Assembly (NCBI GenBank): GCA_051294375.1
Contig: CM119263.1
Coordinates: 22,842,833 to 22,906,832 of the forward strand
DNA: 64,000 nt
Origin: Paraspadella gotoi
Taxonomy: Eukaryota > Animalia > Chaetognatha
Direction of reading: 5' to 3'
Shown: positions 7,588-51,608 of the stretch, piece after piece
Numbering within the stretch: position 1 is the stretch's first letter
Layout: each line of letters starts with the position of its first letter
Notes under the pieces: generated by a model
Database searches by the model: none
Told to the model about the DNA's origin: nothing
The model's input: only the letters and a program-made list of their open reading frames with translations
Position numbers and translations under genes: made by a program

Positions 7588-8602
7588 TTTTATGAAATTG
7601 CGTTACAACAATATAAAAATTATCCATTCATTTAATAAATAAGCTATCTTGCCCCTGACTTTGGACAGGCTTTGGTGGTTTAAGGCCTCCATCACTCTTA
7701 CAAGATAATGACATAGCAGGTCCCTGCAAGTTTTCAATCAAGACTCTTTCACAGTCTCGTTTATTCACTCCCAGAGTACCTGGCTTCCCTATCAATGAAG
7801 TGGAAAATATTTCAAAGAATGTTTCAATTGTATGAAAAGACCACTCCCTTAAGTATTAGATCGGGGAATACTTATTGTACTCCGCACTAGCATCAAAATA
7901 CAAGGAGCTGAATTTTATGAAATTGGTACAACCAATATAAAAATTATCCATTCATTTAATAAATAAGCTATCTTGCCCCTGACTTTGGACAGGCTTTGGT
8001 GGTTTAAGGCCTCCATCACTCTTACAAGATAATGACATAGCAGGTCCCTGCAAGTTTTCAATCAAGACTCTTTCACAGTCTCGTTTATTCACTCCCAGAG
8101 TACCTGGCTTCCCTATCAATGAAGTGGAAAATATTTCAAAGAATGTTTCAATTGTATGAAAAGACCACTCCCTTAAGTATTAGATCGGGGAATACTTATT
8201 GTACTCCGCACTAGCATCAAAATACAAGGAGCTGAATTTTATGAAATTGGTACAACCAATATAAAAATTATCCATTCATTTAATAAATAAGCTATCTTGC
8301 CCCTGACTTTGGACAGGCTTTGGTGGTTTAAGGCCTCCATCACTCTTACAAGATAATGACATAGCAGGTCCCTGCAAGTTTTCAATCAAGACTCTTTCAC
8401 AGTCTCGTTTATTCACTCCCAGAGTACCTGGCTTCCCTATCAATGAAGTGGAAAATATTTCAAAGATGTTTCAATTGTATGAAAAGACCACTCCCTTAAG
8501 TATTAGATCGGGGAATACTTATTGTACTCCGCACTAGCATCAAAATACAAGGAGCTGAATTTTTATGAAATTGGTACAACCAATATAAAAATTATCCATT
8601 CA
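7588..8602 (-). repeat. Tandem array of three near-identical 324-bp units plus a partial unit, each full unit carrying a twister-like ribozyme (non-LTR retrozyme-like)
   Basis: ATGAAATTGG occurs at 7917, 8241 and 8565 (period 324). A dispersed monomer lies in the opposite orientation at 51299-51608. Confidence 0.92.
7645..7707 (-). ncRNA. Type-P5 twister ribozyme candidate, array unit 1 (identical copies at 7969-8031 and 8293-8355)
   Basis: The minus strand reads UAUCUUGU-AA-GAGU-GA-UGG-AGGCCU-U^AA-ACC-AC-CAAAG-CCUG-U-CCA-AA-GU-CAGG-G-GCAAGAUA. P5, P2 and P4 form, and both pseudoknots pair (CCA/UGG and AC/GU). Predicted cut at 7682/7681. Confidence 0.75.
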
Positions 8603-10730
8603 TGTTATTATGTTTTTTTTTTTATTTTTAGAATCTCCATTTTTTTATATATGCTGTTTTTTAAAGCCTTATCTCGTTTTCTTACTATTCCTGGATTATT
8701 TCATCAAAAATTAACGCGTTATGAAGGCGTTGTTTTTCTTATTTGCTCTTTTTTCTTCTCTTAGGTTTTTTTCTCACGTTTCCTTTATATCTTTCCCCCT
8801 GTTTTGACGCTAGTTTCCCCCCAAAAAAAATATCCGGTTGAGGACTGAGCAGATCATAGATCTCATGGGTGCATCGAATTCTTGAAAGCGATTTCTTTTT
8901 TGAGCCCCTTTAAAGCGAAAACCACTTTCGTGCGCCCTCGCGAAAGCGATTTGTGTTGTGAGTGCGACGACTTCCCTTTTTCAACCGCGAGGATAATTTT
9001 CTTCCGATGCTAATTAAGGGAACGTGAAGGGAAAAGCAGGGAAGGAAAAGGAGAAAAAGAAAAGGAATACAAAAAGGAAAAGGAAAGAAAGAGCAATGGG
9101 TTCCGATTACCTTCCCGGTTCGTCGTCGAGTTACCCCAATTTCGGGTTATAAAGTTAATCCGCGTTAATCAGGCGAAAGGATCGAGGAGATTAACTTCTT
9201 TTTCTCTATTATTTTTCGATTAATGTTTTTTTCGATGCTGCGAATTTTTTCGATATTACTTTTCGATATCCGAGTTTTCATCATGGAAGGTCGTTGTTTC
9301 TACCGCATCTACGGTTGATGACTTTTCGAGAACCGTCGAGAAGATGGCTTAGCAATAAAAGTCAACGTTTCAAGCTCTCAAACACTCTTGAGAAATACAA
9401 GGCTTTGTTTTCAATTTTACCGAGCATCTGGAGAGAACACGGGCCGTATACAACACGCTTTTCTCTGCAAAGTGTCACGTGATTATGTATCTTTCATTTG
9501 TTTGGTTATTATTTGGGTCTATCTATATTCTCTAACTCCCCGCTCTCCTTCCATACCCCAGTTTCGGAATTTCCTTACCTTCCCTACCCCGCCTCTTTCC
9601 TCTAGTCAACGAATCACTCTCTTCAAGCTTCAGCCCGAAAAAAAAGACGAGACCTTACCTTCTCCCCGAAGGTCGCCGCGACTGCTGAGGTAAATTGGCG
9701 TTGGCGAGAAAGTTGGGGGTGAGGCTTCGGGGTGAGGGGCTGCAGTCGAACTCGAGGGAATCCTCGTCATCGTCTTCTTGGCCCGAATCGCTAGAGGGGG
9801 GGGGTGAGACAAGAGGGAGAAGAGGAAATCGAATGAGGAATTGAGGACGGAAGGGGAGGACCGTCGGAGGAGGAGATGGGGAGAAGAGATGGTACGTGGA
9901 GATGGGAGATTTGAAGGTGGGTTCGGGTGGGGAGAAGAGATGGTGTTTGCAGATCGGAAGGTTTGAAGGTGGGTGCAGATGTAGAGACGAGATGGTATGT
10001 GCAGATGGGGAGGTTTGAAGGTGAGGGCAGATGGGGCGGAGAGGAAGGGCGCCGAAGAAAGAAGAACCTTTTTAACAAAGCGATCTTGACCCGGAAAAAT
10101 AAACTGCAAGACCTTTGAACAACAAAAACAACTTAAACTTAACTAAAAAGTTTACAAGTCGGTGATCTCGGCGTCAGGAATAGATTTTAAAATCTTACCA
10201 TTGTCTAACGGCGTCATCACGAATTAACTTTAGCAAGTTTTATTGGTTCTTTCAGCCGGTGACAGAATACTTCTTTTCTTCTGTTTCGTATACTTTTCTT
10301 TTCTTTTTTCTATTTTCTTCCCTTGTTGTGGGTAACAAGGTTAACAAGGGGGTTATTATTATAACCACTAGTTAATAAAGATGACAAAACGTCATAACAT
10401 GAACGTCGTGCCCAACACAAATTATAACCATTGAATAAATTACTTGATTATGAAAATTACATTGACGAACAATATCTTATTAGGCTTATTATTCCACTCT
10501 TAGTTTTTCTCTTCTCTTCTTGTCTTCTACTCTCCTTTTCAGAGACACAATGAATTATACTTTTCTTCCTCACTCTCTCTTTTCCGGACGTGTGTTCATC
10601 ATTATAACCCTAGTAATGTCTCAGATTGAAAGGAGAAATTACCGAAGTGATTTAACGCCTATTATAGAATTCTCATCACCGATAAAAGCGATTTGATTTT
10701 GATCACATATCAGTTTTATCACATATGTAC

Positions 10731-11339
10731 TAAGGCGTAGTAAAATTTCTAAATTTAACTTTAATTAAAATTCTGAAAGTGAGGAACGAACAACATTATA
10801 CTAATGAACATTTATGTAATAAAAAATTTTTAATAAATTTTACAATTTACGCAGTAGGCCATATTTATACTAGTACTAAACCAATAAATGTTAAAATTTC
10901 AAAACAGTTTTTTCTAAGATTTTTTTGCAGATTTGGATTTGTCATAAAAAGTTGGTAAAAAGAAATATAACTTTTTTTGAAAAATTCGTTCATTAAGTGG
11001 GTCAAAAATTAGAAAAAGCTATATTTTGAGCTGAAAATTAATTTTTTATATATTAAATATAGTTTTTTTAATTTTTAACCCACTTAATGAAAGAATTTTT
11101 AAAAATGATTTATATTTTCCTTTATCAACTTTTGACGAGGAATTCAAATCTGCAATCAAAATTAAGAAAAGCTTATTTTGAAATTTTTCGATTTTATAAG
11201 GATAGTACTATATATAAATATATATATATATATATAAAAAACATAAAATTAATTTTTTTTTACAAATTAATGTTCACTGATGGTATGTTGTTCATAATTA
11301 ACTTTTAGAATTTTCGTATGTAACTTTCACTACGCCTTA
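10731..11339. mobile_element. Non-autonomous hAT transposon (MITE), 609 bp
   Basis: TIRs TAAGGCGTAGT...ACTACGCCTTA and a perfect 8-bp TSD ATATGTAC (10723-10730 / 11340-11347). A second, inverted copy is at 27293-27902. Confidence 0.92.
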
Positions 11340-11729
11340 ATATGTACATATAAAAAGTTTGAACAAACAATGTCAGATCTGCCCACGATCATTAGCGGTA
11401 ATTAATTAATTAATTAATACTATATAAACTAAAATAAAAATTTAATTAATAAATTAATTAATTTGATCTGAAATGTTTGTTTTTACGTCTTTTCACCACT
11501 GACCACGACAAAAGCAACAACGACAATGATGGCGATGATGATTGAATAATTAATTAAATTATAAATAAACTGATTGATTGATTAATTGATTAATTAATTA
11601 ATTGATTGATTGATTAATTGCCGGATTAATTAAATATTTATTAATTAACTGACTAATTGATTAATTAACTGATTAATTATTTGATTAATTACTACATCTT
11701 ACATTTACAAAAAGAAAAAGAAGCATAAT

Positions 11730-12999: not shown

Positions 13000-13877
13000 A
13001 AAACTTTTTAATCTATATTCTTTAAATATATATGTATTGCTTTCTTAAAAAAAATTTTACTTATCATATATGTGTAAAGAGAGATCGTACGCGTGCAATA
13101 CTTGGCGTCGTTATGTAAATACTGATCTTTTGAAGAGACAGTAATTATTGATTTGTGTTAGTGACAGAACCGTTCATATAAGCAGTCCCTGAGCTTCGAT
13201 CAGGCTGTAACACCATGTTACAGGCGGGTTAAGCGCCCTGTCGGTAACGTGACCTGTGACCCTCAAAAGATGACGGATAGAGAGCTAGGTGGTACATGAT
13301 TGACTAGTCTTATTTTTTGAAGTTACCTGAAATAATTGCAGATTGCCAAAGTGGTATTAGTAAATCAAACAAGGTTTAAAATATTGCGTCTTACTCCCTT
13401 GAGATCTAAAAATGGAATGTACGAAATCTCGGCCTCCCTCTCGTCTCTCTTCCTTTGTTTATTCTACTTAAACAAAATGTTTACAAAATAGGCGCTGAGT
13501 TCTGGGAATCTATGAAATATTAAACTTTGGAACTGAAGAAATTTAGAGAGACAAAATTTGAACGAAAGTTAATTACTAAATTGTAGCTAATTAAAATATT
13601 ACTAACATCTCCCCCTAAACAAATTGTGTTAAATGGCAAATAGATGAGTAAGCTAAACAGTGAGTACAAATGATCACATGTAAGGCAGTAGTACAAATAA
13701 TCTTAATAGTTATAACAGTATTACAATTGATCAATATTGGGGAAAAGTAATTAGGACAAAAATAAATCTGCGCTGCATCTAATATGAAAAAACGTAACAA
13801 AAACAAAATTGTTTTGAAAATAAGTCGAAACTGCCGGCCAAACAGTAGGAACTAAAATGTAATATAATTAATTATTA

Positions 13878-16155
13878 CACTGTTTTTTTTAACCATGCAG
13901 TCGAAAATTTTCACAATCCTGTACAGTTTCTAGTATAATTTTAAGTGCTTAAACGATTAACAAGGTGTCGTCAATCAGATTTTGCATTAGACCTGCGCAC
14001 AATTTACCGGAAGTTGGCGTGGACTACAATATGGAATTTTCTTTTTACTACAAATTAAAAGTTAGGCAGTTGTTATTTACTTATCCTGCAATTAGTATAA
14101 TTATTTATAAGTAGTACTTAGACAAAAAATGTTCAATAAAGGCTTTTCATCAATAGTGGGCGTGTCCCAAACCGGAAATAGTGCTCGAATATCAATTAAA
14201 TATGTATTATTAAATGTTTTTGATCTATTCTGACTGCTAATGGTTTTTTCTGTTATATGAAGCTTTATCACAAAAGATTAACATCCATATCATAAAAAAA
14301 TTCAATCATATTTATCAATTATTACATCTTAAAAAGATTCGTTTTTTAATAGCCAAAGGACTTTAAACTTTAACTATAATATTCAAAATTTCATTTCAAT
14401 TTCATTCAATTAATGAGACTTTTCTAATTTAACAATTCCTGGTTTTAATTTTTAATACCTTTTACTAATTTAATTTTTTTTATCGGTAATTTTTTTACTG
14501 GCATACCATATTTTTGCTCAAAAACTATAGCCGGAAGTTAGACCCTTTTTTCATAAAGTTTTATGTAAATCTTTAGAGGGAATACCTTATTTTTAAGTTT
14601 TTCCAGGTGAAGGAGAAGAGAAACAATATCCATGCATCAAAAAGTTAATCAGATTTATAATTTTCTTTCTTTTCATTAAAAAAACCTTTAATCCAGCAAT
14701 AAAAAATATTATTTATACATTATGTGAAATCTTTCTTTTGTCGCGTTTTTGAATTAGAAAGAGTTTGAAGTAGTTCAAGCAATGATTTTTCTTTAAACAG
14801 TGAAAATTTTTTTTCAATATCTATCTCTCTCTCTCTCTGGCCTAAACCTAACCTGTCTTCACCTCGACCTCTATCCTTTTCCAAATCTTTGTTGAAAATT
14901 TTTCTCTCTCTCTTACTCTCTTTCTCTCTTCCTTACTCTCACCTAATTTCACTCTCTCTTCCTTTCTCTCCTCTCTCTCCCAAATATTTTTTGTGAAGTA
15001 AACTGTATACAATTCATAAATGTGGATGAAGACTTGAATTAAAAGTTGAAACATGTTCACTGTTTAAAATCTGATACGAAAATAAGAATCAGTTTTAATA
15101 AGCTGTATAAACTTTATTAATTAGTTTTTTTTGATTTAGTTTCATTTAACTTTAGTCCCAAGGGTTTTAGAAGTAAGACGACTCTTATTCAAACCTTGAG
15201 TATATCATATCAAGTTTCATTATAATAAATAATACAGCAATATAAAATTATTAAATATTTTTTCGTTTTGACAAGGAATAACAAATATTTAGTATTAAGC
15301 AATTCATAGTAGAATTTACAAGTTCATTTTATTACTTTCATGCTAATATTTTTATCTTTTGAACAAATCATTTTTCAAGGCAGTTCTTTTGTATTTTGCT
15401 TCTCTCTCTCTCTCTCAACCTGACTTTTTCTGGAACAATTTACTTTTACTCTGGACTGCCTTTAAAAATGATTAGTTCATAAGAATTAAAATGTTGGCAA
15501 AAAAGTAAGAAAATCATACTTATAAATCCTACCACGAATTGCTTAATACTAAATATTTTTTTATTCCTTGTCAAAAAAAGTTTATATGCTTAATACTAAA
15601 TCATTATCTCCTGTGCATATGATGTCTCTTCAACAACGAATTAATTCTGAATTTTAAGTTATTAGAGAACGAATCTTTTGTAACTGATATTTATTTTGTC
15701 TATTTAGAGCTATGATAGTTTTTTATGATATATATGATAATTCTTTGTGATACAACTATCATATGATAATAAAAAACCATTATATTTATAGTAGATCAAA
15801 AACTATTAATATTGCGTATTTTATCAGTTTTTGAGCATCATTTCCGGTTTTGGACACGCCCACTATGGGTAAGAACCTTTTTTTAAAAAAAATTTAAAGT
15901 AAAACCTATTAAATATTGAGAGTAAACTCAAATTTAGGCAATTATTATTTTTATAAAACTATTTTTTTATCTTGCAATTAAAGAAAAGAGAAAAATTCCA
16001 TTTTGTAGTCAACGTCAACTTCCGGTCAATTGTGCGTAGGTCTAACGCAAAATCTGATTGACGACACCTTGTTAATCGTTTTAAGTACTTAAAATTATAC
16101 TAGAAACTGTACAGGATTGTAAAAATTTTCGACTGCATGGTTAAAAAAAACAGTG
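13878..16155. mobile_element. Non-autonomous DNA transposon with ~350-bp imperfect TIRs (CACTG termini, TA flanks; EnSpm- or Tc1-like)
   Basis: TA|CACTGTTTTTTTTTAACCATGCAGTCG ... CGACTGCATGGTTAAAAAAAACAGTG|TA. A partial related copy lies at ~35982-36350. Confidence 0.82.
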
Positions 16156-17252
16156 TATTAATTATATATATATTGGGAACCAGTATGTAAACAAACATCA
16201 AACAATTCACGTAAATATGGCAGTCATTCATAGTCCCGAAATCGTTCATTCATTCATCAATTTTCAATATTTTTTTCACAAATCAACGGAAAATTTTTTT
16301 TCTTGATCTAATTTGTCCATTACATCAATCAAGGAAAACTCATTCTGCTCTTCCTTTTCCTAACCCCAAAATGGTAAGTGTAACGGATCAGTCTATCATC
16401 CTCTTAAAAGGTGCGCAATTATAATTACGTCACCGATTTTCAATAAGAATTAATTGTTTCATAATTTTAATTTAAATTCAAAACAGTGCCGGCAACCTCA
16501 GTTTTCTGAGAGTGCAGAGAGCCGCAATGTCCTTTTAACAGTGCAAAAGGGTAAGAGACTCAGAACCTTAAGGTAAGATTATTTCGCCAGTGCGGGTTTT
16601 TTAGTTAAGTAAAAATATAAAGTATTATTTTTGTAAAATATTTCGTAAACACTAATGCAGAAATTTGTTTTCGTTTGGTCTGCGGCGCCATTTTACACTC
16701 TGCTCGCCAAACTAGGCTGGAAATATGGGAAATCATGTTCCATTCCCGTCACCAATCAAGGCGTTTTCGGCATTTGTCAGCCCGACCCTTCTACTCTTTA
16801 CTTGGTCATTCTTGTTGCATTTTCAATTGTCTGTCTGGCATTGCTCATTGGCATCGTCCGCCTTCAATGTCGTCATTGTGTCGGTAAGAGAAAGGTGCAA
16901 ATTAATTCAGTGCCGAAACATGCAAAAAGAAATCATAATTTCGAAATGAAAAGTGCAAAAGAATTCGTGCAACAGATATTAAAAAGGGTGCAAAAATTTC
17001 AGGATCGTCCAGTTCAAAGTATCATTTGTCCGTTCCCTGTACTCTGCCGGTCGCGCCTCAGCGCAAATCGAAAAACCAAATCGCGGACATTGAAGATCAC
17101 TCCGAAGTTTAGATAAACCCATTCGAATGTTATTTCAATGTAAATTTACACCGTCTTATTTAGGTTCTATAAATATTCGAATTAATTATTCATTGATCTA
17201 AATAATTAATATTCATATTTCTAATTTGTCAAACCATTATCAGGTTGGTTGA

Positions 17253-18007
17253 TGTTACGAGGCTAGGGATCTCGCCCCTGCTCAGCAACTTAAGGATAGG
17301 AAGGAAGAGAGAGGTACCTGAGCTAGTCTTCTCGCCCCTGCTCAGCAACCTAAGGATAGGAAGGAGAAGAGAGGTACCTGAGCTAGTCTGCTCGCCCCTG
17401 CTCACCTACCTGAGGTTAGGAAGGAAGCGATAGGTACCTGAGCAAGTTTTCTCGTCACTCCTCTGCTATGTCAGCTATCTCAGCATAGATCATCTAATGA
17501 GAAGTTGGCGAGAAAACAGAAGAACCAATGACAAGCTTGCACACCTCAGCAAGAGAGAGAGGAGGAAAGAGAGATCTCAGATACCACAGCCCTCAGCCAA
17601 TAGGAGAGAGAGGAGAGCTGAGGGTCCTCAAGGGGTACTCAGGTTCCTTAGCCTTGCACCAATGAGATGCTCTATTTTATGTAGATGAGGAGGAAGGGTA
17701 GGCTAGGTTTTTCTATAAAAAGGAGTGTAACAAGGCTTCTGGGGGCAGTTCAGCGGCCTCCCAAGAAGAAAGAAGAACAACTGCGCCCAGAAAGACCAGC
17801 GGACCTAAGGACTCAGGATCATAGAGGAACTATGCCCAAATCTCCCTGGATAGGAAATCCTTGGCCTGGCAACGTCCCTCACTGTTGGAAATAAAGGATG
17901 CTAATAAACTACAAATAAAACTCTAATAAAACGTTTTTCCTGATAGGAAAAAGTAGCTACTGGGTAGTTGTAGGATTGATCTTTTTTGCGGCCCGAAATC
18001 CGCAACA
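17253..18007 (+). mobile_element. Solo LTR, 755 bp
   Basis: TGTTACG...CGCAACA termini with a 5-bp TSD GTTGA. It has three 60-bp tandem repeats (~17270-17456), TATAAAA at ~17714 and clustered AATAAA at ~17890-17930. Confidence 0.85.
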
Positions 18008-18597
18008 GTTGACTTTGATCGGCAACCTGACAACATGCATGTTTCATTCTTCAATTCGTTTCATCATATCAAATATTAACGTTATTAACGATTTGAATTA
18101 AATTTAAATATATGAATTTTAATTTTCGCTTTCGATCGATCAACTTAAAGTCAATAATTTCTACGAGACTTTAGCTTTCCCACATTTCCTTACAAATCGG
18201 TCGTTCTCGGAATTGCGGTTCAGTATCGCAGAACAGCAGTCGGTCGACGAGTTCCGCTAAAACGCGCGTTTTCTTGACATTCAGGTGAGTTCGGTCCGCA
18301 TCGTACAAATTATTGTCTAACACTAACCGACCGTATCTTTTCGTGCGGAAACAATTTTGTTTAACCATTTCAAAGGTTGAACGTCAAGAAAATAATCTTT
18401 TACAAGTCGATTGAGACGTGAAAATAAAAATATTTGACGTAATATTTTTATATAATATAAGTCGTGATCTACTTATTTGGCTTTAGGTTAATGTTTTGGT
18501 TTTCGAGTAAGCAATATCCAAAAATTCATCGTTATCTACAATAAATCATGTTCGTATGTCAGAGAGGCTAAAACAAAAACAAAAAAATATACTAAAC

Positions 18598-19319
18598 TAG
18601 GACTAAGCTCTGACGACCAAAGCCCGAGGTTTTTTTAATATATTCTTATACCGGCCAAGGTAGAATGATGGCAATATTGTTAATATTAAGTTTCAAAAAA
18701 ATCCGACTATAAATATAGAAAATATTAACCAAAATCTTCGGAAAATTCACCCCTTCTTTGGAAGATTTTCGCCATAGAAGATTTTTCCCGAATGTGACTC
18801 CCGGTTGAAAACTCTTAGAATTCCGATGTTAGCTGCTCTTTTACTTTTACTTTAAATAAAAATTTCACCAAAATGGACTAATTCACTTTACCATGATCGT
18901 ATCATATCAAAATAACCTAATAAAATGTAAAGAAAAATTTTGAGAGCCCTTCAGATACTTTGCCAAAGGATTCCAAAATTGGACCTCATTTATTGAACAG
19001 GAACATACCTCAGTCACGTTTATATCGTTTTCAAGGAAAAAAATTCCTTTCATTTCTATATAAAATCAGAGATGGAAAATTTTTTTGTCCAGAAGCAATC
19101 TATTTGTTCTGGCTTGTTTGATATCAAGATGTTGATGATTTGACAAGAGAAAAAAAATGCGAGCCCTTCAGATGCAACAGGATCGGAATCAAGTGTTTTT
19201 ACATCGATATTTTACCAGAATTTTTACCAGGAGCGTTTATATTGTTTGGTAGTCAGATTTGAATGAAAATCTCCATTGAAAAAGTCTTCCTCGATCTCTA
19301 AGAACGACGTAGACTCCTA
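18598..19319. mobile_element. Non-autonomous DNA transposon, TAGGA...TCCTA ends, apparent 7-bp TSD
   Basis: ACTAAAC flanks both sides. A near-identical copy is at 20562-21279. Confidence 0.7.
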
Positions 19320-20561
19320 ACTAAACGTTTTAGGAAAAAATTTCGTTTCATTGGGAAAAGAAAAAAAAATCTTATATTACCCCCTTATCAACTCGGACAA
19401 AAACAATCATTCGCGCGTACAGATAACTTCGAGGCTGTCCGTTAAGCGAACAACGCTGGCCACCATGTCGGTAACGTGACCTGTGACCCTCAAAAGATGA
19501 CGGATAGAGAGCTTGGTGGTACATGATTGACTAGTCTTATTTTTTGAAGTTACCTGAAATAATTACAGATTGCCAAAGTTGTATTAGTAAATCAAACAAT
19601 TGTTAAAATATTGCGTCTTACTCCCTTGAGATCTAAAAATGGAATGTACTAAAATCTCGGCCTCCCTCTCGTCTCTCTTCTTTTGTTTATTCTACTTAGA
19701 CAAAATGTTTACAAAATAGGCGCCGAGTTCCTGGGAATCTATGAAATATTAAACTTTGGAACTGAGAAAATTTAGAGAGACAAAATTTGAATGAAAGTTA
19801 ATTACTAAATTGGAGGCTAATTAAAATATTACTAACAGCCCCGTCCTTAACTGCTAGGCGACCACCGGGCTAGAACCCCGGACCTTTGGGTTGGGAGGCG
19901 AATGACTTGCCTCCGGCACCAATGGCCGCTGATGAACGGTTGATAGATTTTAGTCCACCATACATCCCCCCTCCCATAGGGAGAAGTCTGTTTCGTCTCT
20001 TCAGTGAATTGTTGTTGGTGGAAAGTGTATCACCAAGTCGAGGCAAGGTGCCTGATGTGTTGTTGGTGGAAAGTGCATCGCCAGGTTGAGGCATGTCGCC
20101 TGAAAGTGTTGTTGTTGGCTTGTTGCTATTGTGTTCGGAAGTCGGGCTCACCAATGAATAGACAGTAATTATTGATTTGTGTTAGTGACAGAACCGTTCA
20201 ATATAAGCAGTCACTGAGCTTCAGATCAGGCTGTAACACCATGTTACAGGCGGGTTAAGCGCCCCATCCCTCTTAACTGCTAGGCGACCACCAGGCTAGA
20301 ACCCCGGACCTTTGGGTTGGGAGGCGAATGACTTGCCTCCGGCACCAATGGCCGCTGATGAACGGTTGATAGATTTTAGTCCACCATACTTTGTTAGTTC
20401 GTTGCCAACCATTTAGAAAAGCTCAGTACTGTTAAAAAGAATACCAGGGATCGCCCGTTAATGGAAGATATTAAGATATTTTTCTACACTCCCCTGAGGA
20501 TACCTACTACGTAAGAAATAAGAAATGAACTTGAAGAATAATTGTCTGATATTATTATTAT

Positions 20562-21279: not shown

Positions 21280-21360
21280 TTATTATTGTTTTTAAAGGTT
21301 TTTAACATCTGAAGAGACAAAATGATTGTTATGTGTAAGTGACAGAACCGTTCAATATAA

Positions 21361-21434
21361 GCAGTCCCTGGGCTTCGGATCAGGCTGTAACACCGTGTTA
21401 CAGGCGGGTTAAGCACCCCATCCCTCTTAACTGC
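21361..21434 (-). ncRNA. Type-P5 twister candidate in a TRIM LTR (partner copy at 21780-21853; another at 20207-20280)
   Basis: Family consensus: GCAGUU-AA-GAGG-GA-CGG-GGCGCU-U^AA-CCC-GC-CUGUAACA(CGG)UGUUACAG-CCUGA-U-CCG-AA-GC-UCAGG-GACUGC. This copy has UGG and GGUGCU (wobble substitutions). Predicted cut at 21411/21410. Confidence 0.68.
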
Positions 21435-21856
21435 TAGGCGGCTACCGGGCTAGAACCCCGGACCTTTGGGTTGGGAGGCGAATGACTTGCCTCCGGCACC
21501 AATGGCCGCTGATGAACGATTGGTGGATTTTAGTCCACCATACATCCCCCCCTCCCATAGGTAGAAGTTTGTTGCGTCTCTTCAGTGAATTGTTGTCGGT
21601 GGAAAGTTCGTCACCAAGTTTAGGCATGTTGCCTGATGTGTTGTGGGTGGAAAGTGCATCGCCAGGTTGAGGCATGTTGCCTGAAAGTGTTGTTGTTGCT
21701 GTTGTGTTCGGAAGTCGGGCTCACCAATGAAGAGACAGTAATTATTGTTATGTGTTAGTGACAGAACCGTTCAATATAAGCAGTCACTGAGCTTCGGATA
21801 GGGCTGTAACACCGTGTTACAGGCGGGTTAAGCGCCCCGTCCCTCTTAACTGCTAG

Positions 21857-21928
21857 GCGGCCACCGGGCTAAAACCCCGGACCTTTGGGTTGGGAGGCTA
21901 ATGACATGCCTCCGGCACCAATGGCCGC
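21857..21928 (-). promoter_or_regulatory. tRNA-derived segment (putative internal Pol III promoter) in the TRIM LTR; not a functional tRNA
   Basis: 72 nt bounded by acceptor-like GCGGCCA/TGGCCGC. The family consensus has ATTCGCCTCCCAA (Gly-CCC-like loop) and a T-arm/B-box-like CCGGGGTTCTAGCCCGG. The anticodon stem does not pair. Also at 21438-21509 and 39450-39520. Confidence 0.62.
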
Positions 21929-24900
21929 TGATGAACGGTTGGTGGATTTTAGTCCACCATACATCTCTATATCATCATTTTGTTATCAATATGGGCGTTC
22001 TGGAGTGAGGGAATTTTTGAGCTGGGACTTACCGTTTTTTTTTTAAATAAAAATTATTTTGATTTACGATGAAGTTTTATAAAAGTGTGCGATCATAGTA
22101 AGTTAAAAATTTAGATATGGCTTCTCATCTTGAAATAGCTTTGATATTTTCATATTACATTTGGATTTAATTATTTTTTTTTGAATTTCCACTTCATTAA
22201 GATTTACTGCAATATGCAAATGAGATTATAGTACTCATTACAATATTCAAATTAGTATATAAAATGCTTTAATCTAATTTACATATTGTAGTATATATTA
22301 TTGAAGATGAAATTCATAAAATTTTTTTAACAAACATGGGAAATCACAAGACCTTTTTAATGTGAAGCTATATCTTAATTTTAATACAAATAAAAATAAA
22401 GTCTTTTACAACCTATGATTGAAAACAATTGGAAAAATTTCCAATTGTAAACAATTGTAACATATTTTTGCCTTTCTTTTATTTTTTTAAATTATAAATA
22501 TATATTTTTTTCTTTTTCTGAAAAAACGAGTTCAGGCTTTGCAGTGACTGTACAGCGGCTTTCCAGCAGCTGTCTTGCTTTGTCTCTCTCTGTCTGTCTC
22601 TCTCTGTGTTTCTCTCTCTCTCTCTCTCTCTCTCTGTACGATCTCTTTCGGCAGTGATTTTGATTCGGGTATTTTAAACATTGAAATTGAAACTTAAATA
22701 ACTATTAATTCTTTTTTCCCACTGATAAATATGAAACTTTCTTTATTTAAAAAAACGGTTGGCATTAGTTATCTTCTCCTTATAACATAGAACTCACTGG
22801 GTGAATTTCTATGCTTTAAAAATACGGTAAGGCATGATTTCTTTCACGTTAATCATTCCAATTACGGTATCAGCCTTTTTTAAGAAGAAACTAAAAACGA
22901 TTTTTCATGGTAAGAACAACTTTTAAAGATAAAATTGCTCGTAAGATCTTTCTGCGGTTTTTAGATATACTACTGCTTAGGCAAAAAATTGGCACGCTAT
23001 ATTATTAAACTTTTTTTTTGTTTTCCACTTCTTTTCTTATTTTCTTTCTTTCTCATTCTCTCTGTGTGAAGTTTTTTGTTGTTTCACGCCCCCATAATAA
23101 GCATTAAATTTTATTTTATTTAGACATAGTCAGTCACTCTTGTCCTTCAACTGTTCTCTCCCTCAATACTATCCATAACTCATTTCTTTGGTGGACGTTC
23201 TCTCTCTCTCTCTCTCTCTCTTTCTTTATCATAATGTTTGGTAAAATTTCTTATAAAATTAACACTGCGCTGAAGAAGACTCGAAAAAGAATCAAAACAT
23301 GTCCATTTTAAAAATAAAACTCATTGTTTCTAAACAAAAATAATCTTTGTTTTCTCTCTCAATTTTATTTCGAGAAAACTTTGGTAGCGTATGATTTTAT
23401 TCAAAGTTTGGTTGCCGAGCAGATTTAAAAAATCGTACAAACGTTGCATTTAGGAAAAAAACGACTCTTTCCAATATTGTTCAGCTGTTTCTTATAATGT
23501 TGATTAACTTTGTACCACAACACAAATTAGGCCGAACGAAGGATTGGTTAAAAACATCTCCACCCGTTTCTAATGATAAAATAGTACCATTTTGGCAACT
23601 TTTAGCCAAAAAAATTATGTCCATTTTTGTCCATTTTTACTTACGACTTCTGATTTGAATGCCAAGGAAAGTTGAGAAAAATTTTTTACTTTGGAAATCC
23701 GTTCTTTCTTATCTTCTTTACTTACCCCTGGGTAGATTTATTAGTTTAAATCATTTATAGTTTGCCTATGAATTAATTTTAAAGTTAACAAGTCAAAAAG
23801 TTGCAGTTTCAGTCTTTATCATAATTTGTTAAACAAAAATAAATCAAATTAATTGAAAGTAACAGAAAATATAGCCTATTGACTAAGCTTTTCACACCTA
23901 TAAAATTATCAAAAAAACTTTTTTGGTTTAGCCACAAATAATTTTTAAAGGCGTCTTTTAATTTGTGACTTTTTGTGACTTGCATTTATTTTTGATAAAG
24001 ATAATATTTTCAACTCAATCATTAGTTTTAAAAGATGAGGTACATACTGACCTTGATTAATAAAAAAAAACCGCACCCTTTTAAGCCAATGGAAAGCGTC
24101 AGGACTTGTTTTTTCTCAAAATCGACATCTGCCGATTTACTAAATTTGCTAGGCAACCAAAATTGAAATAAAAATCATGCGCTACCGTTCATTTTCTTTC
24201 TTATAATGCTTATTAAAGAATTTCTTTGATTTGGCTCAATGTAAATGTTGTGAGAGGGAAGACGAAAGGGAAAACTATAAAAGGAGAAGGGGAGAGAATG
24301 AAAGAGATGGTGAAAGGCAAAAAAACGAAGGCATATGGGGAAAAATACTAAAACAATTGTAAGGTGAGAAAAGAGGGAAAAATGGAAAGAAAAAGAGGGG
24401 AAAAGAAAAGGGAAGAATGAAGATGAGAAAAAAAGGTAAGGAAAGTGCATGAGTGGCAGAAAAAAATAGGGGCCGAAAAATGGTAAGTGACAGCGTGAAA
24501 AGTAAGGGAGGAAAGAGGAATAGGAAAATATAAAGTAAGAGAAGAAAAGATGTGAAGAAAAATAATCAGGAAAAGCGTATGAAGGAAAAAAAATTATATC
24601 AGATAATGTGGCGTCTTACCTAAAAACTTTTATGCAAGTAAAAGACGTGAAGATTCTTATGAGGAATTCGATCTTTAAAAATTATTTATACCATAAAAAT
24701 TCGAACATACTTCTATCTAAAATTATGCAGTTAATGAGATTAGAAAAACAATCATTGAAGAAATCATGTCTTACCGTATTTTTAACTCTTAGAAATTTAC
24801 AATGGGAAGTTCTAAGTGATAAGAAGGAATTGAGACGACCGTTTTTTTAAATGAAGTAAGCTTCATACTTGCCAATGAGATCAAGAAAGATGGTAATTAT

Positions 24901-25407
24901 TTAAGTTCAGATTTCGTTGTCTAAAAGAGTCTGATTGTATGCGAAACCTGTGATGATAACCAAATGATTGATGTGATAATAACCAAATGGTTGATGCGAT
25001 GATAGTCATTCATTGATGTGATGATAATCATTCATTGATACGATGATAGTCATTCATTGATGCGATGTTAGTCATTCATTGACGCAATGAACGATTCATC
25101 ATAAATAAAACAAACAAATGCGTGTATTGAGGCGACTTACCACCGGTCTCTCTCTCTAAACCCTTCCTCTCTCCTCTTTCTTCGAGCCGGTCTATTCCAC
25201 ACGGTCACTTTGCCCTAGCTTTGGCAATGACCTTAGATTGACCGGACACAGTAATAGGACCGAGGCGACCGTAAGGTCAAGTTGGTCCGGGCGATGATAA
25301 AAGTGGATCAGGAGAGAGCTAGTCTCACTTCTTTTCTACTTCTCTTACATCGTCACAATTCTTCACCTTCTCCTCACTTTTATTATTATTATTTTCGTCT
25401 TCTACAT

Positions 25408-25420
25408 TGGTGATCCCGAC
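25408..25420 (+). promoter_or_regulatory. Primer binding site, tRNA-Trp
   Basis: TGGTGATCCCGAC lies 1 nt after the LTR and is a 12/13 match to TGGTGACCCCGAC, the complement of the tRNA-Trp 3' end. Confidence 0.85.
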
Positions 25421-31197: not shown

Positions 31198-31263
31198 AAA
31201 GAAAGAGAAAAAGAAAAAGAAAAAGAAAGAGAAAGAGAGAGAGAAAGAAAGAGAGAGAGAAAG

Positions 31264-34305: not shown

Positions 34306-34561
34306 TGAACTACAACTTAGGGTTGCCTGTGATGCCCATTGGGATGGGGCATCTCACTGTTGGCTTTGGGGGCTTCCGACCCTCAGTGACGCATCCAGTC
34401 ACTGGCGCGGTTACCCTAGGACGGTCTCGCTTTGCCAACGCAGAGGGAAGTCGTTAGGACTGTGGATGGAACACTACGCCTGGGATGGTGTTTTTCCCCT
34501 CTGAGCCAATGGATTTGGCTGACGGATGGTGGACGTGAGGCGGTGTGAATATACCGCCACA
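34306..34561 (-). mobile_element. Family 2 solo-LTR-like element with twister candidate
   Basis: Colinear with 50676-50915. The left boundary is uncertain and no TSD was found. Confidence 0.7.
34359..34439 (-). ncRNA. Type-P5 twister candidate, family 2
   Basis: GUUGGC-AAA-GCGA-GA-CCG-UCCUAGGG-U^AA-CCGC-GC-CAGUGAC(UGGAUGC)GUCACUG-AGGG-U-CGG-AA-GC-CCCC-AAA-GCCAAC. Pseudoknots CGG/CCG and GC/GC. Predicted cut at 34413/34412. Confidence 0.7.
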
Positions 34562-35961: not shown

Positions 35962-38045
35962 ATATGTTATATTATACATTACACTTTTTTTTAACCATGC
36001 AATCGAAAATTTTCACAATACTGTTCAGTTTCTAGTATAATTTTAAGTGCTTAAAACGATTAACAATGTGTCGTAAATTAGACCCATGCACAATTGACCG
36101 GAAGTTGACGTTGACTACAACATGGAATATTTCCCTTTTCTTAAACTTAAAATTTAAGTGAATATTATTTTTATAAGACTTAACTTATCTTGCAATTAGT
36201 CTCATTATTTAATCAGTTTTAATCAGTTTTAGATCAGAGTCGTATAAATTCTAAAACCCTTGGGACTAAAGTTAAATGAAACTAAATAGAAAAAAATAAT
36301 TAATAAAGTTTATACAGCTTATTAAAACTGAGCTTATATTCTTATCAGATTTTACATTTGTCTCACTTTACTGGAAATTGGTGTTTAGTCCATACTCGGT
36401 TAATCTTCTTATTATAAATTGAATATTAAGTAATTACTATTTTCAAAAAAGATTATCTGGCAATTAGTCTATTTTATAAGAATTATTTGACTATATGCTT
36501 TAAACTGACCTAGTGCTCAAATTTAAAGCTAAACATGTGTTATATAAAATAATTTAAAACTTACTACTTATTCTATCATAAAAAATATTATAAATATAAT
36601 AAAAGTTTTTGTTTTAATATTTATGGATTATGTATTAGGCCTTGAACATTTTTTTCCTGATGAATCAGAATGCTTGAATAATATTCCTTTGACATTACTT
36701 TTCAGTCAGCTTTTAGCCATTTTTTCAATCTTATACAAATAATGAAAAGCAACATACCAATATTTAGTTTTATTTAAAAAAATCCAATTAGGTTTTTTCC
36801 CTTTGCTGGCATTCAATGAGATTCATGATTTTCCCCAAGATTTATTTCTTCTGGATTAAAAAAGTTGCAGGTAAAAAGCTGGCTAAATATTAATATTTAT
36901 GTCATTTATATTTTTTTATTATTTTTTTATAATTTGACATTTTTTAGATGATTTAAGTATTTGAGTGACCAAACCAATGAACAGACAAAGGGGATGATAG
37001 AGTTGATTCTGCTTAAGCAGATTTGACTATAAAGCTTTTCTTACCAATTCTCATTGAGAATAAAGGTTTTGCTTAGAAAATCAAAATATCAAAAAAATAA
37101 CAAATCAGACTCTAGCAAAATCGAAAAGCTAGATGCTGATTTTTTTAGAATTCATATTTTTTTTCCTAACTCGTAATCCATTATTCTCAAGTTTCAAAAT
37201 CTTTTTTTCCAAAATCATTCAATCAATTTTTTTATTAATTAAAAATATTTTTTATAATGTTGCTTTCTTTAAAAGAATTAGAAAAAAGGGAAAAATATAG
37301 TAATTATGTAAGGATTTTGAAAATACCTTTAAAATATTAGATAATTAGACACAAGGGGAGTAAGAAGAAAAAAACTTGTCATATTGTTATTCAGATTAAT
37401 TGATTAATTACAAGTTAATAATTCATATAAATTGTGGAAATGATGGGTAAAAAATATTCATCTTGGTCTCGGTTAACTATTAAGTTATCGTTATAGTTTT
37501 GTTTTAATAATATTAATACTTTTTTTGCATTTATAAAAGCAATGGTCTGAAATTTTTTAAGCGTTTCGAGCTATATTGCTTCATCATTTTTCCCATTTTT
37601 GATCCAGTTAGCTTTTTTGTTGATGGTCAAGGGTTATGGTCAGAAACAGTAATGTCCAGTAGTGCACATCGCACATATTAGCAAAAGTAACAACCAATTA
37701 ATTTGGCTCTGAAACAACTCTAAAAGGACAAAATTAGCAGGACACCGTTTTGCCACGTTATTTTTCATTGTGTCATATATGATTTTTTAAACTTAAGTAT
37801 ACCAAAACGAAACAGGAAAATCAACTTTTATCTAAAAGCTTCAGAATCATAGACATATCTTTCATTGTATGTTTAATAACCTTAAGATTATTATTATTAT
37901 TTATTATTATTATTTAGTTTTGCAGTAGAGTACAGTGCTTTTTTTTCAAAATCATTGCTCCTAAACGGATAGACCGATTTTACTAAAATTTATACTAAAC
38001 TTACATCTTTCAATAAACTTCAAAATTCAAACAATTTCAAACAAA

Positions 38046-38143
38046 GGGTAATCGCGCCATTGGCAGGTGGTTCCACTGTGGGTCGGAAGCCCCTACCGCT
38101 TACAGTTTAAATGCCTACCCCAGCTGGGCATCACATGCATCCC
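38046..38143 (+). mobile_element. Diverged fragment of family 2 (3' half of the twister and downstream hairpin)
   Basis: GGGTAATCGCGC...GGGTCGGAAGCCC...GGGCATCAC aligns to the reverse complement of 34320-34416. Confidence 0.65.
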
Positions 38144-38298
38144 GGCTGTTTCTATGACATAGTGTTTTTTTCCTCATCCCCCTCCCCGACAAAAAAAAAA
38201 AAAAAAAACAACAACCAAGAAACCGATTCGCGCAGGATCGACGTTTTGTTTTTTTCCTTAGATCCGAACTGAGATATAAAGCCGCCTTGCGGATTACC

Positions 38299-38902: not shown

Positions 38903-39553
38903 TGAAGAGACAGTAATCATTGCTTATGGTTTAATGACAGAACCGTTCAATATAAGGAGTCCTGAGCTTCGGATCAGGCTGCAACACCGTGTTACAGGCG
39001 GGTTAAGCGCCCCGTCCCTCTTAACTGCTAGGCGCCACCAGGCTAGAACCCCGGAACTTTGGGTTGGGAGGCGAATGAATTGCCTCCGGCACCAATGGCG
39101 GCTGATGAACGGTTGGTGGATTTTAGTCCACCATACATCCCCCCCTCCCGTAGGGAGAAGTCTGTTGCGTCTCTTCAGTGAATTGTTGTTGTTGGTGGAA
39201 AGTTCGTCACCAAGTTGAGGCACGTCGCCTGATGTGTTGTTGGCGGAAAGTGCATCGCCAGGTTGAGGCATGTTGCCTGAAAGTGTTGTTGTTGCTGCTG
39301 TGTTCGGAAGTCGGGCTCATCAATGAAGAGACAGTAATTATTGTTATGTGTTAATGACAGAACCGTTCAATATAGCAGTCCCTGAGCTTCGATCAGGCTG
39401 TAACACGTGTTACAGGCGGGTTAAGCGCCCCGTCCCTCTTAACTGCGAGGCGGCCACGGGCTAGAACCCCGGACCTTTGGGTTGGGAGGCGAATGACTTG
39501 CCTCCGGCCACAATGGCCGCTGATGAACGGTTGGTGGATTTTAGTCCACCATA
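38903..39553 (-). mobile_element. TRIM family 1, copy 3, intact, antisense in GPCR intron 1
   Basis: LTRs at 38903-39135 and 39324-39553, TSD GCGG. PPT present, PBS with one substitution. Confidence 0.92.
38956..39028 (-). ncRNA. Type-P5 twister candidate with a consensus core (partner at 39375-39446)
   Basis: GAGG-GA-CGG-GGCGCU-U^AA-CCC-GC...CCUGA-U-CCG-AA-GC-UCAGG is intact. Predicted cut at 39005/39004. Confidence 0.72.
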
Positions 39554-43984: not shown

Positions 43985-44273
43985 ATAACAAAGTCATAGT
44001 CATAAATGTGGATAAGGCTCTAAGTGGGGTTGAAAAGTGCTATCTTTAAGCCCCACCTGAACGGGTCCTGGGCTTGGAACCACGCCCCCAAGGCGGCTTT
44101 CGGCCGTCCTCACGCTTCCCACAGGGGAGGTACCAGGTTGGGATTGAACCCAGTCCCTAGTGGTAATGAGCTGATGGCTTTACTCAATGAGCCACCGGGT
44201 CACGACAGAAGGTGTCATGCTTATAGACGGGGTGAACCTAGGCTATGCCCGACTAGACCTAAAATATACAATT
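43985..44273 (-). mobile_element. tRNA-headed SINE-like element carrying a twister candidate (family 4)
   Basis: The minus-strand head starts at 44201 with A box TGGCTCATTGAG and B box GGTTCAATCCC. The 3' tail is TATGACTATGAC. The direct repeat ACCCGG (43979-43984 / 44274-44279) may be a TSD. Confidence 0.65.
44056..44125 (-). ncRNA. Type-P5 twister-like motif, family 4
   Basis: CCUGUGGG-AA-GCGU-GA-GGA-CGGCCG-A^AA-GCC-GC-CUUGGGGG-CGUGG-U-UCC-AA-GC-CCAGG-A-CCCGUUCAGG. Pseudoknots UCC/GGA and GC/GC. It has A instead of U at -1 and one P4 mismatch. Confidence 0.55.
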
Positions 44274-46682: not shown

Positions 46683-46719
<37 letters not shown>

Positions 46720-47346: not shown

Positions 47347-47450
47347 AGACAGGCGGCGCCACTCTGGGTCGCAAGCCCCTAAAGCCAACAGTGAGATGCC
47401 CCATCCAAATGGGCATCATAGGCGACCCGTCTACTTCCTTCGTTGCCATA
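47347..47450 (+). mobile_element. 3' fragment of a family 2 element
   Basis: GGGTCGCAAGCCCC...GCCAACAGTGAGATGCCCCATCC...GTTGCCATA, ending at the same terminus as the 50676 copy. Confidence 0.7.
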
Positions 47451-50263: not shown

Positions 50264-50340
<77 letters not shown>

Positions 50341-50675
50341 CCAGTTGCTTCGTTTAAATCCACCCGCTGCCGTTCTCCTTTCCTCCTCACTGATAACTTT
50401 TCACACCTCACTTCTCACTCCTCCCTCCTCCCTTCACACTCCTCATTGCCCAAGCCAAGTCTTCCCCCCAAAAAAACATTTCTTTTCCCCCTTCAATTTC
50501 TCGCGTGATTTCGCTTTCGCCACATCTCTCTCTCTCTCTCTCTCTTCGTCTGGAATTTTCTGTCTGGATTCTCGCCACGCTCTCGTCGTAAAAAAGAGAT
50601 GTTTACGGTCCGCGCTCGTTTTTCTCTTTTTTGATTCAAACAATGCTAATGATGATGGGGATATAAAGGAAGCAT

Positions 50676-50915
50676 TATGGCAACAGTCGGGTTGCCTGTG
50701 ATACCCATTGGCCTTGAGGGCTTCCGACCCTCAGTGACGCCTCCTGTCACTGGCGCGGTTACCCTAGGACGGTCTCGCTTTGCCAACGCAGAACCAGAGG
50801 GAAGTCGTGAGGACTGTGGATGGAACTCAACGCTTGGGATGGAGTGTTCCCCCTCTGAGCCAACGGAATTGGCTGAATGATGGTGGATGTGAGGCGGTGT
50901 GGATATACCGCTACA
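50676..50915 (-). mobile_element. Family 2 solo-LTR-like element, 240 bp, with a twister candidate at 50708-50786
   Basis: 4-bp TSD GCAT (50672-50675 / 50916-50919). Twister-sense termini TGTAG...CCATA and an A-box-like TGGCTCAGAGG. P4 GAGG/CCUC is perfect. Predicted cut at 50761/50760. Confidence 0.8.
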
Positions 50916-51298
50916 GCATTTTAAAAAAATAAAGAGGTCTGTTTGTTAAGAATTAAGTAGCCGCTTTCGTTAGCGGTGTCGGCGCCATGTAGAATAGCAT
51001 AAGATTATTTTAATTAGCAGTCGTGACGAGAAATTGGGCGAGTATTATCGTATATTATGCAGCGTCGTCTATAGTTTAATTGGAAACGGGGCACAGTCAA
51101 TTTGACATAAAATTTTGATTCTTCCCCGCGCGTTGCTTTTGGAAACAGAAACAACCTTGTACAAAAGATTTTACATTAGAAATAGAATATGAAAGGAAAA
51201 TCGTTATGATAAAATTTGGGAATGAATGAAGAACAAAAATTAATTACGCTGATATGTGAAATGCGAAATAAAAACATAAAACATAAAACATAAAACAA

Positions 51299-51608
51299 TA
51301 TTTTGATGCTAGTGCGGAGTACAATAAGTATTCCCCGATCTAATACTTAAGGGAGTGGTCTTTTCATACAATTGAAACATTCTTTGAAATATTTTCCACT
51401 TCATTGATAGGGAAGCCAGGTACTCTGGGAGTGAATAAACGAGACTGTGAGAGAGTCTTGATTGAAAGCTTGCAGGGACCTGCTATGTCATTATCTTGTA
51501 AGAGTGATGGAGGCCTTAAACCACCAAAGCCTGTCCAAAGTCAGGGGCAAGATAGCTTATTTATTAAATGAATGGATAATTTTTATATTGGTTGTACCAA
51601 TTTCATAA
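51299..51608 (+). mobile_element. Dispersed monomer of the 324-bp repeat, with a twister candidate at 51492-51554
   Basis: Near-perfect reverse complement of the 7588-8602 unit. Predicted cut at 51517/51518. Confidence 0.9.

What the first reader, a model, noticed from the sequence alone, without database searches (positions are those of the whole stretch)
7645..51554. Four unrelated repeat families share one covarying type-P5 twister ribozyme fold
Seen: each family parses as P5-AA(A)-P2'-GA-pk'-P1-(U/A)AA-P2-NC-P3-P4-U-pk-AA-GN-P4'-P5'. The 3-bp pseudoknot changes but always pairs: CCG/CGG (TRIM1), CGG/CCG (family 2), CCA/UGG (324-bp repeat), UCC/GGA (family 4). The 2-bp pseudoknot is GC/GC, except AC/GU in the 324-bp repeat. 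Three families share an atypical 3-bp P2 with one bulged base (CCC/GAGG, ACC/GAGU, GCC/GCGU). Established: this order of conserved elements matches the twister core (env22 and O. sativa type), permuted at P5. Inference: this genome hosts a radiation of twister-based small retroelements with a variant P2 that standard models may miss.
Basis: partly seen in the sequence, partly recalled or inferred. Interest (0 to 1): 0.92.

Follow-up and report, generated by a model that had tools for sequence, protein, structure and literature searches.

The report
Paired twister ribozymes in animal retroelements
Four small jumping-gene-like sequences in this stretch of what is likely animal DNA each carry a variant of the twister self-cutting RNA fold that the standard database misses and that likely needs two copies paired up to cut; if it does cut, one of them would be an animal counterpart of the ribozyme-bearing LTR elements that I found described only for plants.

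Summary
Observation holds. Eight sites in four sequence families parse as type-P5 twister with both pseudoknots fully paired; shuffles give 0.04 such sites per window. None reaches Rfam's threshold (best 25.8 of 37.6 bits).
Hosts: a high-copy TRIM (LTRs, CsRn1-type PBS, PPT, 4-bp TSDs) with the motif in both LTRs, laid out like a plant LTR retrozyme; a solo-LTR family; a 324-bp tandem repeat; one tRNA-headed, SINE-like copy.
Corrections: 'unrelated' is doubtful for the two LTR families; family 4 is single-copy here and weakest; the bulged-P2 pairs never vary; only 1 of 7 TRIM LTR copies is intact; a model built from three families missed the fourth. Cleavage, dimerisation and expression are untested.
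The scan earlier noted similar motifs in Naiad elements of other genomes, not in LTR elements. Ten literature searches found no twister in LTRs and no dimeric twister.

The parts
7588..8603 (-). 324-bp tandem repeat, 3.1 copies, 99% alike, 37% GC; ends about 90 nt downstream of the predicted cut, the same end as the solo copy
7645..7708 (-). P5-type twister-like motif, 324-bp family; predicted cut 7682^7681; P1 AGGCCU; identical cores cut at 8006^8005 and 8330^8329
51299..51608 (+). Solo, 5'-shortened copy of the 324-bp repeat beside an (AAAACAT)n run; motif with predicted cut 51517^51518
38903..39553 (-). TRIM1 copy a: 5' LTR 39553-39324, PBS, 188-nt internal part, PPT, 3' LTR 39135-38903; TSD CCGC; predicted cuts 418 nt apart
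38953..39031 (-). The one TRIM1 motif that passes the strict descriptor; predicted cut 39005^39004; P1 GGCGCU; the motif in this element's 5' LTR lacks a pseudoknot base
21310..21961 (-). TRIM1 copy b, TSD GATG; both motifs carry P4 mismatches
13131..20388 (-). TRIM1 copy c, TSD AAAG; its 3' LTR is split inside the motif's P1 by a 6.6-kb LTR element (13236-19837)
34689..34805 (-). Decayed 3' half of a TRIM1 LTR
34320..34561 (-). Family 2 copy; motif 34360-34439, predicted cut 34413^34412, P1 UCCUAGGG; 3' end differs from the other copies
50676..50915 (-). Family 2 solo-LTR-like copy (starts TGTA, ends CATA, flanked by ATGC on both sides); predicted cut 50761^50760
38045..38157 (+). Family 2 3' fragment, diverged, beginning inside P1 a few bases before the predicted cut
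47348..47450 (+). Family 2 3' fragment beginning in P3
44140..44194 (-). tRNA-type Pol III promoter boxes: A-box-like 7 of 9 at 44194 and, 44 nt on, the window's only match to my B-box pattern at 44150
   Evidence: box consensus recalled; ARAGORN finds no tRNA
44060..44121 (-). Family 4 motif, single copy; predicted cut 44100^44099; P1 CGGCCG; 3-bp P4, short P5, competing hairpin
25128..31263 (+). Decayed Ty3/gypsy element with a CsRn1-type Gag signature and a PBS one letter from TRIM1's; stands for the likely class of helper; its own LTR has no twister motif

Best explanation
Four small retroelement-like families here carry a variant type-P5 twister fold whose P1 is a loopless palindrome, and these motifs are predicted to self-cleave, likely as two-copy dimers, so that a transcript holding two copies would be cut into a unit-length RNA that is likely circularised and copied by another element's reverse transcriptase. 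Shown: the fold's elements, both pseudoknots, the palindromic P1, the TRIM1 anatomy and its high copy number. Inferred: (1) two copies pair through P1, giving a 6-8-bp duplex and two composite active sites, each made of the 5' half (P5, P2', GA, pseudoknot strand) of one copy and the 3' half (cut site, P2, P4, L4) of the other; (2) the G of GA acts as base and the A after the cut as acid, as in twister; (3) in TRIM1 the two LTR copies release a 418-419-nt RNA without terminal redundancy, which has to be circularised before tRNA-primed reverse transcription by a CsRn1-type gypsy element can rebuild two LTRs, as proposed for plant LTR retrozymes; (4) the 324-bp array yields 324-nt monomers like animal non-LTR retrozymes, probably tied to Penelope-like elements; (5) lone copies would be largely silent, which would spare host transcripts.
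For: 8 of 18 skeleton sites have both pseudoknots against 17 of 3040 in shuffles; all 8 have a self-complementary P1 against 0 of those 17. On a 6-row, 3-family alignment 95.6% of cells pair and 9 of 15 pairs change on both sides; sliding partners drops pairing to 26-53% (rows are related and the structure was derived from them). P1 as an intermolecular duplex scores -8.3 to -11.0 kcal/mol, as a hairpin +3.6 to +5.6. TRIM1: three copies with 4-bp TSDs, PBS, PPT; 15,060, 3,006 and 970 contigs of three runs from three studies lay on it, with many different flanks at the LTR ends. In the 40 substitution rows shown there (53 not shown) none hits GA, P1, the cut site, P2, L4 or either pseudoknot; within the motif they fall in P3 and P5. 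Precedents, from passages read: plant LTR retrozymes (PMC4918200); dimer-dependent hammerheads with palindromic stem III (PMC6765202; PMC7229834); twisters tolerate P1, P2 and P4 imperfections but not pseudoknot or catalytic-base changes (PMC11662667 section 32); tRNA-Trp PBS and 4-bp TSD mark CsRn1-like elements (PMC2582038).
Against: No cleavage, dimer or RNA data. No site reaches Rfam's gathering score. A covariance model from three families did not recover held-out family 2 at E<=1. Only 1 of 7 TRIM1 LTR copies passes the strict descriptor and no complete copy in the window has two intact motifs; the LTR pairs of copies a and b differ at 15 and 14 positions, so these are old copies. Monomer minimum-energy folds of TRIM1 and family 4 prefer a competing hairpin over P2 (pseudoknots are not modelled). 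Predicted circles are only modestly more stable than shuffles (z -2.1 to -2.8), and the TRIM1 circles are 53-56% paired, below the 70% described for retrozymes. P1 is reported to be dispensable in twisters, so a dimer may not be needed. The helper-type gypsy element's LTR has no motif. The host is not identified.
Confidence: 0.6

Rival explanations
1. The motifs are real twisters that cleave as monomers (mini-twisters with a 1-2-bp P1 closed by a short loop); the palindrome is inherited or incidental.
For: P1 imperfections do not lower cleavage in about 1,900 type-P1 twisters, and P1 is called dispensable (PMC11662667); T-variants with a weakened P1 cleave (PMC8501958 passages). Family 4 sits as a single copy behind Pol III boxes.
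Against: The two inner pairs of P1, which cannot form in a monomer hairpin, are Watson-Crick in all four families with different letters. Those papers tested type-P1 or open-ended forms, not a short covalent P1 linker.
Confidence: 0.22
2. The motifs descend from active twisters but are now passengers: the elements move by ordinary LTR, SINE or Penelope-like routes without cleavage.
For: 6 of 7 TRIM1 LTR copies are damaged in the motif; family 2 has a P2 mismatch next to the active site in both full copies; Craig et al. raise the idea that hammerheads may simply parasitise Penelope-like elements (PMC8557442 passage).
Against: Four different sequence solutions keep both pseudoknots and the palindrome; all 4 copies of the 324-bp family are intact; the variant rows shown for TRIM1 spare the core (partial list). 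Damage in old copies is expected after insertion.
Confidence: 0.14
3. The parse is over-fitting of GC-rich hairpin-prone repeats to a flexible consensus.
For: Rfam scores are sub-threshold; the bulge option was chosen after seeing the sites; family 4 has a strong alternative hairpin, a 3-bp P4 and one copy, so chance is more plausible for it alone.
Against: Shuffle rate 0.04 per window against four distinct families; 0 of 123 and 0 of 12 outside pattern matches complete the pseudoknot; Twister-P5 is the only family returned at E<=1 for the whole window.
Confidence: 0.04

Closest known systems
Twister ribozyme, type P5 (Rfam RF02684; Roth et al. 2014, recalled, not read)
   Same: Order of elements, GA and N^AA, the U-nnn-AA-G loop 4, both pseudoknots, open P5.
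   Different: P1 is a loopless palindrome (the Rfam consensus shows 3 pairs around 14 further positions); P2 has 3 pairs and a bulge in three families, a mismatch in the fourth; scores are below the gathering threshold.
Plant LTR retrozymes (PMC4918200, passages)
   Same: Non-coding element with two LTRs, a ribozyme motif in each LTR, PBS, PPT and 4-bp TSD, presumed gypsy helper.
   Different: Twister-like motif instead of a type III hammerhead; likely animal host; PBS of the CsRn1 (tRNA-Trp) type instead of tRNA-Met; smaller unit (418 nt against about 600-1000); circular RNA not shown.
Animal non-LTR retrozymes and Penelope-like-element hammerheads (PMC7229834, PMC6765202, bioRxiv 10.64898/2026.07.22.740005; passages)
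   Same: Tandem unit of 170-400 nt with low GC and one ribozyme motif per unit (324-bp family); a palindromic, loop-poor helix that points to dimer cleavage.
   Different: No hammerhead found by a simple pattern scan of the window; the preprint has 0 occurrences of 'twister'; no Penelope-like ORF seen in the window.
T-variant twisters of Perere-3 (RTE) in Schistosoma mansoni (PMC8501958, passages)
   Same: Twister with a weakened P1 in a retroelement of an invertebrate.
   Different: Those sit at the 5' end of a LINE with P1 as the terminal helix and were shown to cleave; here the motif is internal, permuted at P5, and in LTR, tandem and SINE-like settings.
tRNA-bearing hammerhead repeats of schistosomes (passage in PMC4918200; the name Sm-alpha is recalled)
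   Same: tRNA-type head followed by a ribozyme motif (family 4).
   Different: Twister-like motif; single copy here, no TSD found, SINE status unproven.

Membership tests
Twister ribozyme, type P5 | Conserved core letters in P5-permuted order (GA, N^AA, U-nnn-AA-G) | tested here: met
   8 sites in 4 families
Twister ribozyme, type P5 | 3-bp and 2-bp pseudoknots Watson-Crick paired | tested here: met
   8 of 8 intact sites; changes on both sides across families
Twister ribozyme, type P5 | P4 hairpin and open P5 helix | tested here: met
   P4 3-5 bp; P5 clear in the 324-bp family, family 2 and most TRIM1 copies, short in family 4 and mismatched in the 39004 copy
Twister ribozyme, type P5 | Four-pair P2 | tested here: not met
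   3 pairs plus a bulge in three families, 3 of 4 in family 2; tolerated in type-P1 twisters per PMC11662667 section 32
Twister ribozyme, type P5 | P1 closed as an intramolecular hairpin | tested here: not met
   6-8-nt palindrome with no loop in all four families
Twister ribozyme, type P5 | Rfam RF02684 gathering score 37.6 bits | tested here: not met
   best 25.8 bits
Twister ribozyme, type P5 | Site-specific self-cleavage | not testable with these tools
   needs in vitro assay
LTR retrozyme | Two LTRs, PBS, PPT, 4-bp TSD, no protein gene | tested here: met
   TRIM1, three copies; internal part 185-189 nt
LTR retrozyme | Type III hammerhead in each LTR | tested here: not met
   no hammerhead hit; twister-like motif instead
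LTR retrozyme | Unit-length circular RNA in vivo | not testable with these tools
   only contigs were available
Non-LTR retrozyme | Tandem 170-400-nt low-GC unit with one ribozyme per unit | tested here: met
   324 bp, 37% GC
Non-LTR retrozyme | Type I hammerhead | tested here: not met
Penelope-like (Naiad) pseudo-LTR | Adjacent to, or homologous with the end of, an RT/GIY-YIG ORF | tested here: inconclusive
   no such ORF among the 12 ORFs of 150 aa or more (read by eye); 0 hits for four short window motifs in the PMC8557442 supplement; genome not held
tRNA-derived SINE (family 4) | A and B boxes at tRNA spacing | tested here: met
   44 nt apart
tRNA-derived SINE (family 4) | Dispersed copies with TSD and a shared tail | tested here: inconclusive
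   one copy in the window; a short TATGAC repeat about 95 nt past the cut
CsRn1-clade helper for TRIM1 | tRNA-Trp PBS, 4-bp TSD, CHCC-type Gag | tested here: inconclusive
   TRIM1 PBS is one letter from the window gypsy's; that element's CX2H and CX3C halves lie in different frames; the tRNA identity is recalled, no tRNA gene is in the window; no tree was built

The most novel reading that the evidence does not exclude
A dimer-only 'double twister' has replaced the hammerhead across several retroelement classes of one animal genome, and TRIM1 is an animal LTR retrozyme: a gypsy-mobilised element whose two LTR twisters pair, cut out a 418-nt RNA and replicate through a circle.
Probability: 0.4. 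Interest if true: 0.85.

Novelty: new variant of a known kind. Interest (0 to 1): 0.7.

Why it matters
Twister ribozymes have few shown biological roles; the retroelement link in the papers I read is the 5' end of RTE-type LINEs. Retrozymes are defined by hammerheads, with the LTR type described for plants. A twister in both LTRs of a high-copy TRIM, in a tandem repeat and behind a tRNA-type head would show that the retrozyme strategy does not depend on the ribozyme class or the kingdom. A loopless palindromic P1 would be the twister counterpart of dimer-dependent hammerheads and a built-in two-copy switch. Because Rfam misses these motifs, twisters in animal genomes may be under-counted. All of this is testable with short transcripts.

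Tried and rejected
No whole genome is held, so the genome-wide alignment and R-scape test could not be run. A search for relatives of the gypsy RNase H in viral contigs found none. Sequencing runs: no RNA holder listed; run X9 is only guessed to be RNA, and X10 holds a small share (2 contigs). Copy number and variation in runs were obtained for TRIM1 only; for family 2, family 4 and the 324-bp repeat they remain open. A covariance model from alignment A4 re-found its three training families and the decayed TRIM1 copies but not family 2, and no new site. MAFFT could not put family 2 in register with the others, so one search counts three families only. A simple hammerhead pattern found nothing in the window. 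Host identification failed: the RNase H search returned 30 mostly unnamed homologues, a candidate host exon found none, and the protein atlas did not answer. Homodimer minimum energies are not used as evidence, since any hairpin can open into a duplex. The PMC11662667 supplement could not be read and might list similar variants; Lunse et al. 2017 is not held. I considered and dropped reading family 4's GGCCGAAAGCC as a hammerhead stem: the CUGANGA core is absent.
Full report
Setting. The window is AT-rich (25-49% GC per 2 kb), full of microsatellites and transposon pieces, with one 100-N gap; no whole genome is held. I read it as an invertebrate animal from TTAGGG-like repeats near 32-34 kb and a decayed gypsy element with a CsRn1-type Gag signature, a group described from trematodes and insects (PMC2582038, passages). 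That is inference: searches meant to name the host failed.

Observation. To test the pseudoknots apart from the search I used a skeleton without them: 18 sites in the window, 8 with both pseudoknots Watson-Crick paired, against 17 of 3040 in 400 shuffles. The bulged-P2 option was added with these sites in mind, so the rate is somewhat optimistic. The same fixed letters occur by chance in viral and metagenome contigs, where 0 of 123 parses and 0 of 12 loci complete the 3-bp pseudoknot. On a 6-row alignment of three families, 9 of 15 pairs change on both sides and 95.6% of cells pair, against 26-53% with slid partners; four rows are TRIM1 copies and the structure came from these sequences, so this describes rather than proves. 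Rfam gives no hit at threshold. At E<=1 the only family returned for the window is Twister-P5, on the four 324-bp copies at 25.8 bits. Family 4 scores 12 bits, family 2 gets a partial twister-P1 match of 16 bits, TRIM1 none. A covariance model from three families did not recover family 2.

P1. Between the pseudoknot strand and the cut site lie only 6 or 8 bases: AGGCCU, GGCGCU, UCCUAGGG, CGGCCG. Each is self-complementary from end to end with no loop. All 8 intact sites have this, and none of the 17 shuffled double-pseudoknot sites did. As hairpins these score +3.6 to +5.6 kcal/mol, as intermolecular duplexes -8.3 to -11.0. The simplest reading is a dimer in which the 5' half of one copy completes the 3' half of the other, as reported for hammerheads with a palindromic, very short stem III in Penelope-like elements and amphibian repeats (PMC6765202 and PMC7229834, passages). 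The rival is a monomer: P1 is dispensable in type-P1 twisters (PMC11662667, section 32 read whole).

P2. The 5' strand is 3 nt in three families, fixed by the 2-bp pseudoknot register (AC/GU in the 324-bp repeat). Only its first pair changes on both sides; the two G-C pairs around the bulge never vary. Family 2 has four positions with a C.A mismatch beside the active site in both full copies.

TRIM1. Three complete copies have LTRs of about 233 bp, a 185-189-nt internal part, a PBS, a PPT and 4-bp TSDs CCGC, GATG and AAAG. The motif lies in both LTRs in the element's sense; predicted cuts are 418-419 nt apart. The PBS differs at one letter from that of the gypsy element at 25128-31263, whose Gag signature halves lie in different frames; that element's LTR has no motif. 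In public runs 15,060, 3,006 and 970 contigs of three runs lay on TRIM1, with many different flanks at the LTR ends (189, 130 and 45 contigs at 39324); the best holder may be the window's own source. Of 40 substitution rows shown (53 not shown) none falls on GA, P1, the cut site, P2, L4 or a pseudoknot strand. In the window only 1 of 7 LTR copies passes the strict descriptor; the others carry CpG-type changes, single-base losses, P4 mismatches or an insertion. This anatomy is that of plant LTR retrozymes (PMC4918200, passages) with a different ribozyme, PBS and host. A cut in both LTRs would leave an RNA without terminal redundancy, so circularisation would be needed before reverse transcription; this step is inferred.

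Other families. Family 2 has two full and two 3'-partial copies; one full copy looks like a solo LTR with a 4-bp TSD. Its part upstream of the motif resembles TRIM1's weakly (2 and 12 of 300 shuffles reach the score, among 36 comparisons), and the motif sits at a like position, so the two may be related; this is suggestive only. The 324-bp family is a 3.1-copy array and a solo copy that end at the same place about 90 nt past the cut and begin at different places, the polarity expected of a non-LTR retroelement; its unit fits animal non-LTR retrozymes in size and GC (PMC7229834), which a preprint derives from Penelope-like elements (10.64898/2026.07.22.740005, passages). No Penelope-like ORF is evident in the window. 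Family 4 occurs once, behind A- and B-box matches 44 nt apart; it has a short P4 and P5 and a competing hairpin, and is the weakest case.

What is known. Twisters cleave at the 5' end of Perere-3 LINEs (PMC8501958, passages) and truncated ones are mentioned for RTE elements (PMC7761336, passages). Naiad elements are reported to lack canonical hammerheads, with 0 occurrences of 'twister' (PMC8557442, passages). Passages of PMC10085705, 10.1101/2022.07.19.500677 and PMC13725137 describe no LTR-borne or dimeric twister. Ten full-text searches listed nothing on twisters in LTRs, tandem retrozymes or dimers; I saw most listed papers only as listings, the library lacks most subscription journals, Roth et al. 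2014 is recalled only, and the PMC11662667 supplement was unreadable. This scan's earlier unchecked notes report P5-type twister-like motifs in Naiad elements of other genomes, one with a dimer idea; I had stated the dimer reading before seeing them, and they are not independent support. No note held all the words twister, LTR and gypsy, and no look-alike of this DNA was on record.

Verdict. The motifs work like twister ribozymes by structure (about 0.9 that they descend from real twisters) but fail three tested features of RF02684, so I file them as a variant, not as members. The elements are laid out like retrozymes but lack the defining hammerhead. The full mechanism, dimer cleavage feeding circular intermediates, gets 0.6. 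Novelty: new variant of a known kind. Interest 0.7.

Noticed in passing
window 13236-19837 (-): A 6.6-kb LTR element (LTRs about 372 bp, 357 identities, 15 mismatches; TG...CA ends, its own PBS and PPT, TSD GGGC) is inserted in the P1 of a TRIM1 twister motif; its interior has no ORF longer than 155 aa.
   Followed up: partly
window 25128-31263 (+): Decayed gypsy element with many frame breaks; a 611-bp foldback element sits in it at 27293-27903 with another copy at 10730-11339; its 3' end runs into the N gap.
   Followed up: partly
window 38045 (+): A family 2 fragment begins inside P1, about 4 bases before the predicted cut; one case only.
   Followed up: no
window 39534-39553 and 34539-34561 (-): TRIM1 and family 2 both begin with a short hairpin; TRIM1 starts TATG and ends TTCA, family 2 starts TGTR and ends CATA, departures from the usual TG...CA LTR ends.
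   Followed up: no
window 39135-39324: A few contigs join one LTR end to the other without the internal part (1-3 contigs per run), possibly LTR-LTR junctions.
   Followed up: no
window 31766-34240: Repeats of about 140 bp with embedded CCCTAA/TTAGGG telomere-like runs.
   Followed up: no
window 38299-38622 (+): Possible first exon of a host membrane-protein gene (low-complexity N-terminus, then a hydrophobic stretch); no Pfam hit and no homologue found.
   Followed up: partly
window 2844-3158, 24949-25127, 39789-39896, 43130-43693: A dispersed family built of 22-23-bp GATGCGATGATA-type minisatellite units.
   Followed up: no
window 35444-35906 and 46865-47327; 839-1690: A 463-bp repeat in two inverted copies 99% alike, and a 424-bp tandem repeat related to copies at 18838-19283 and 20802-21243.
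   Followed up: no
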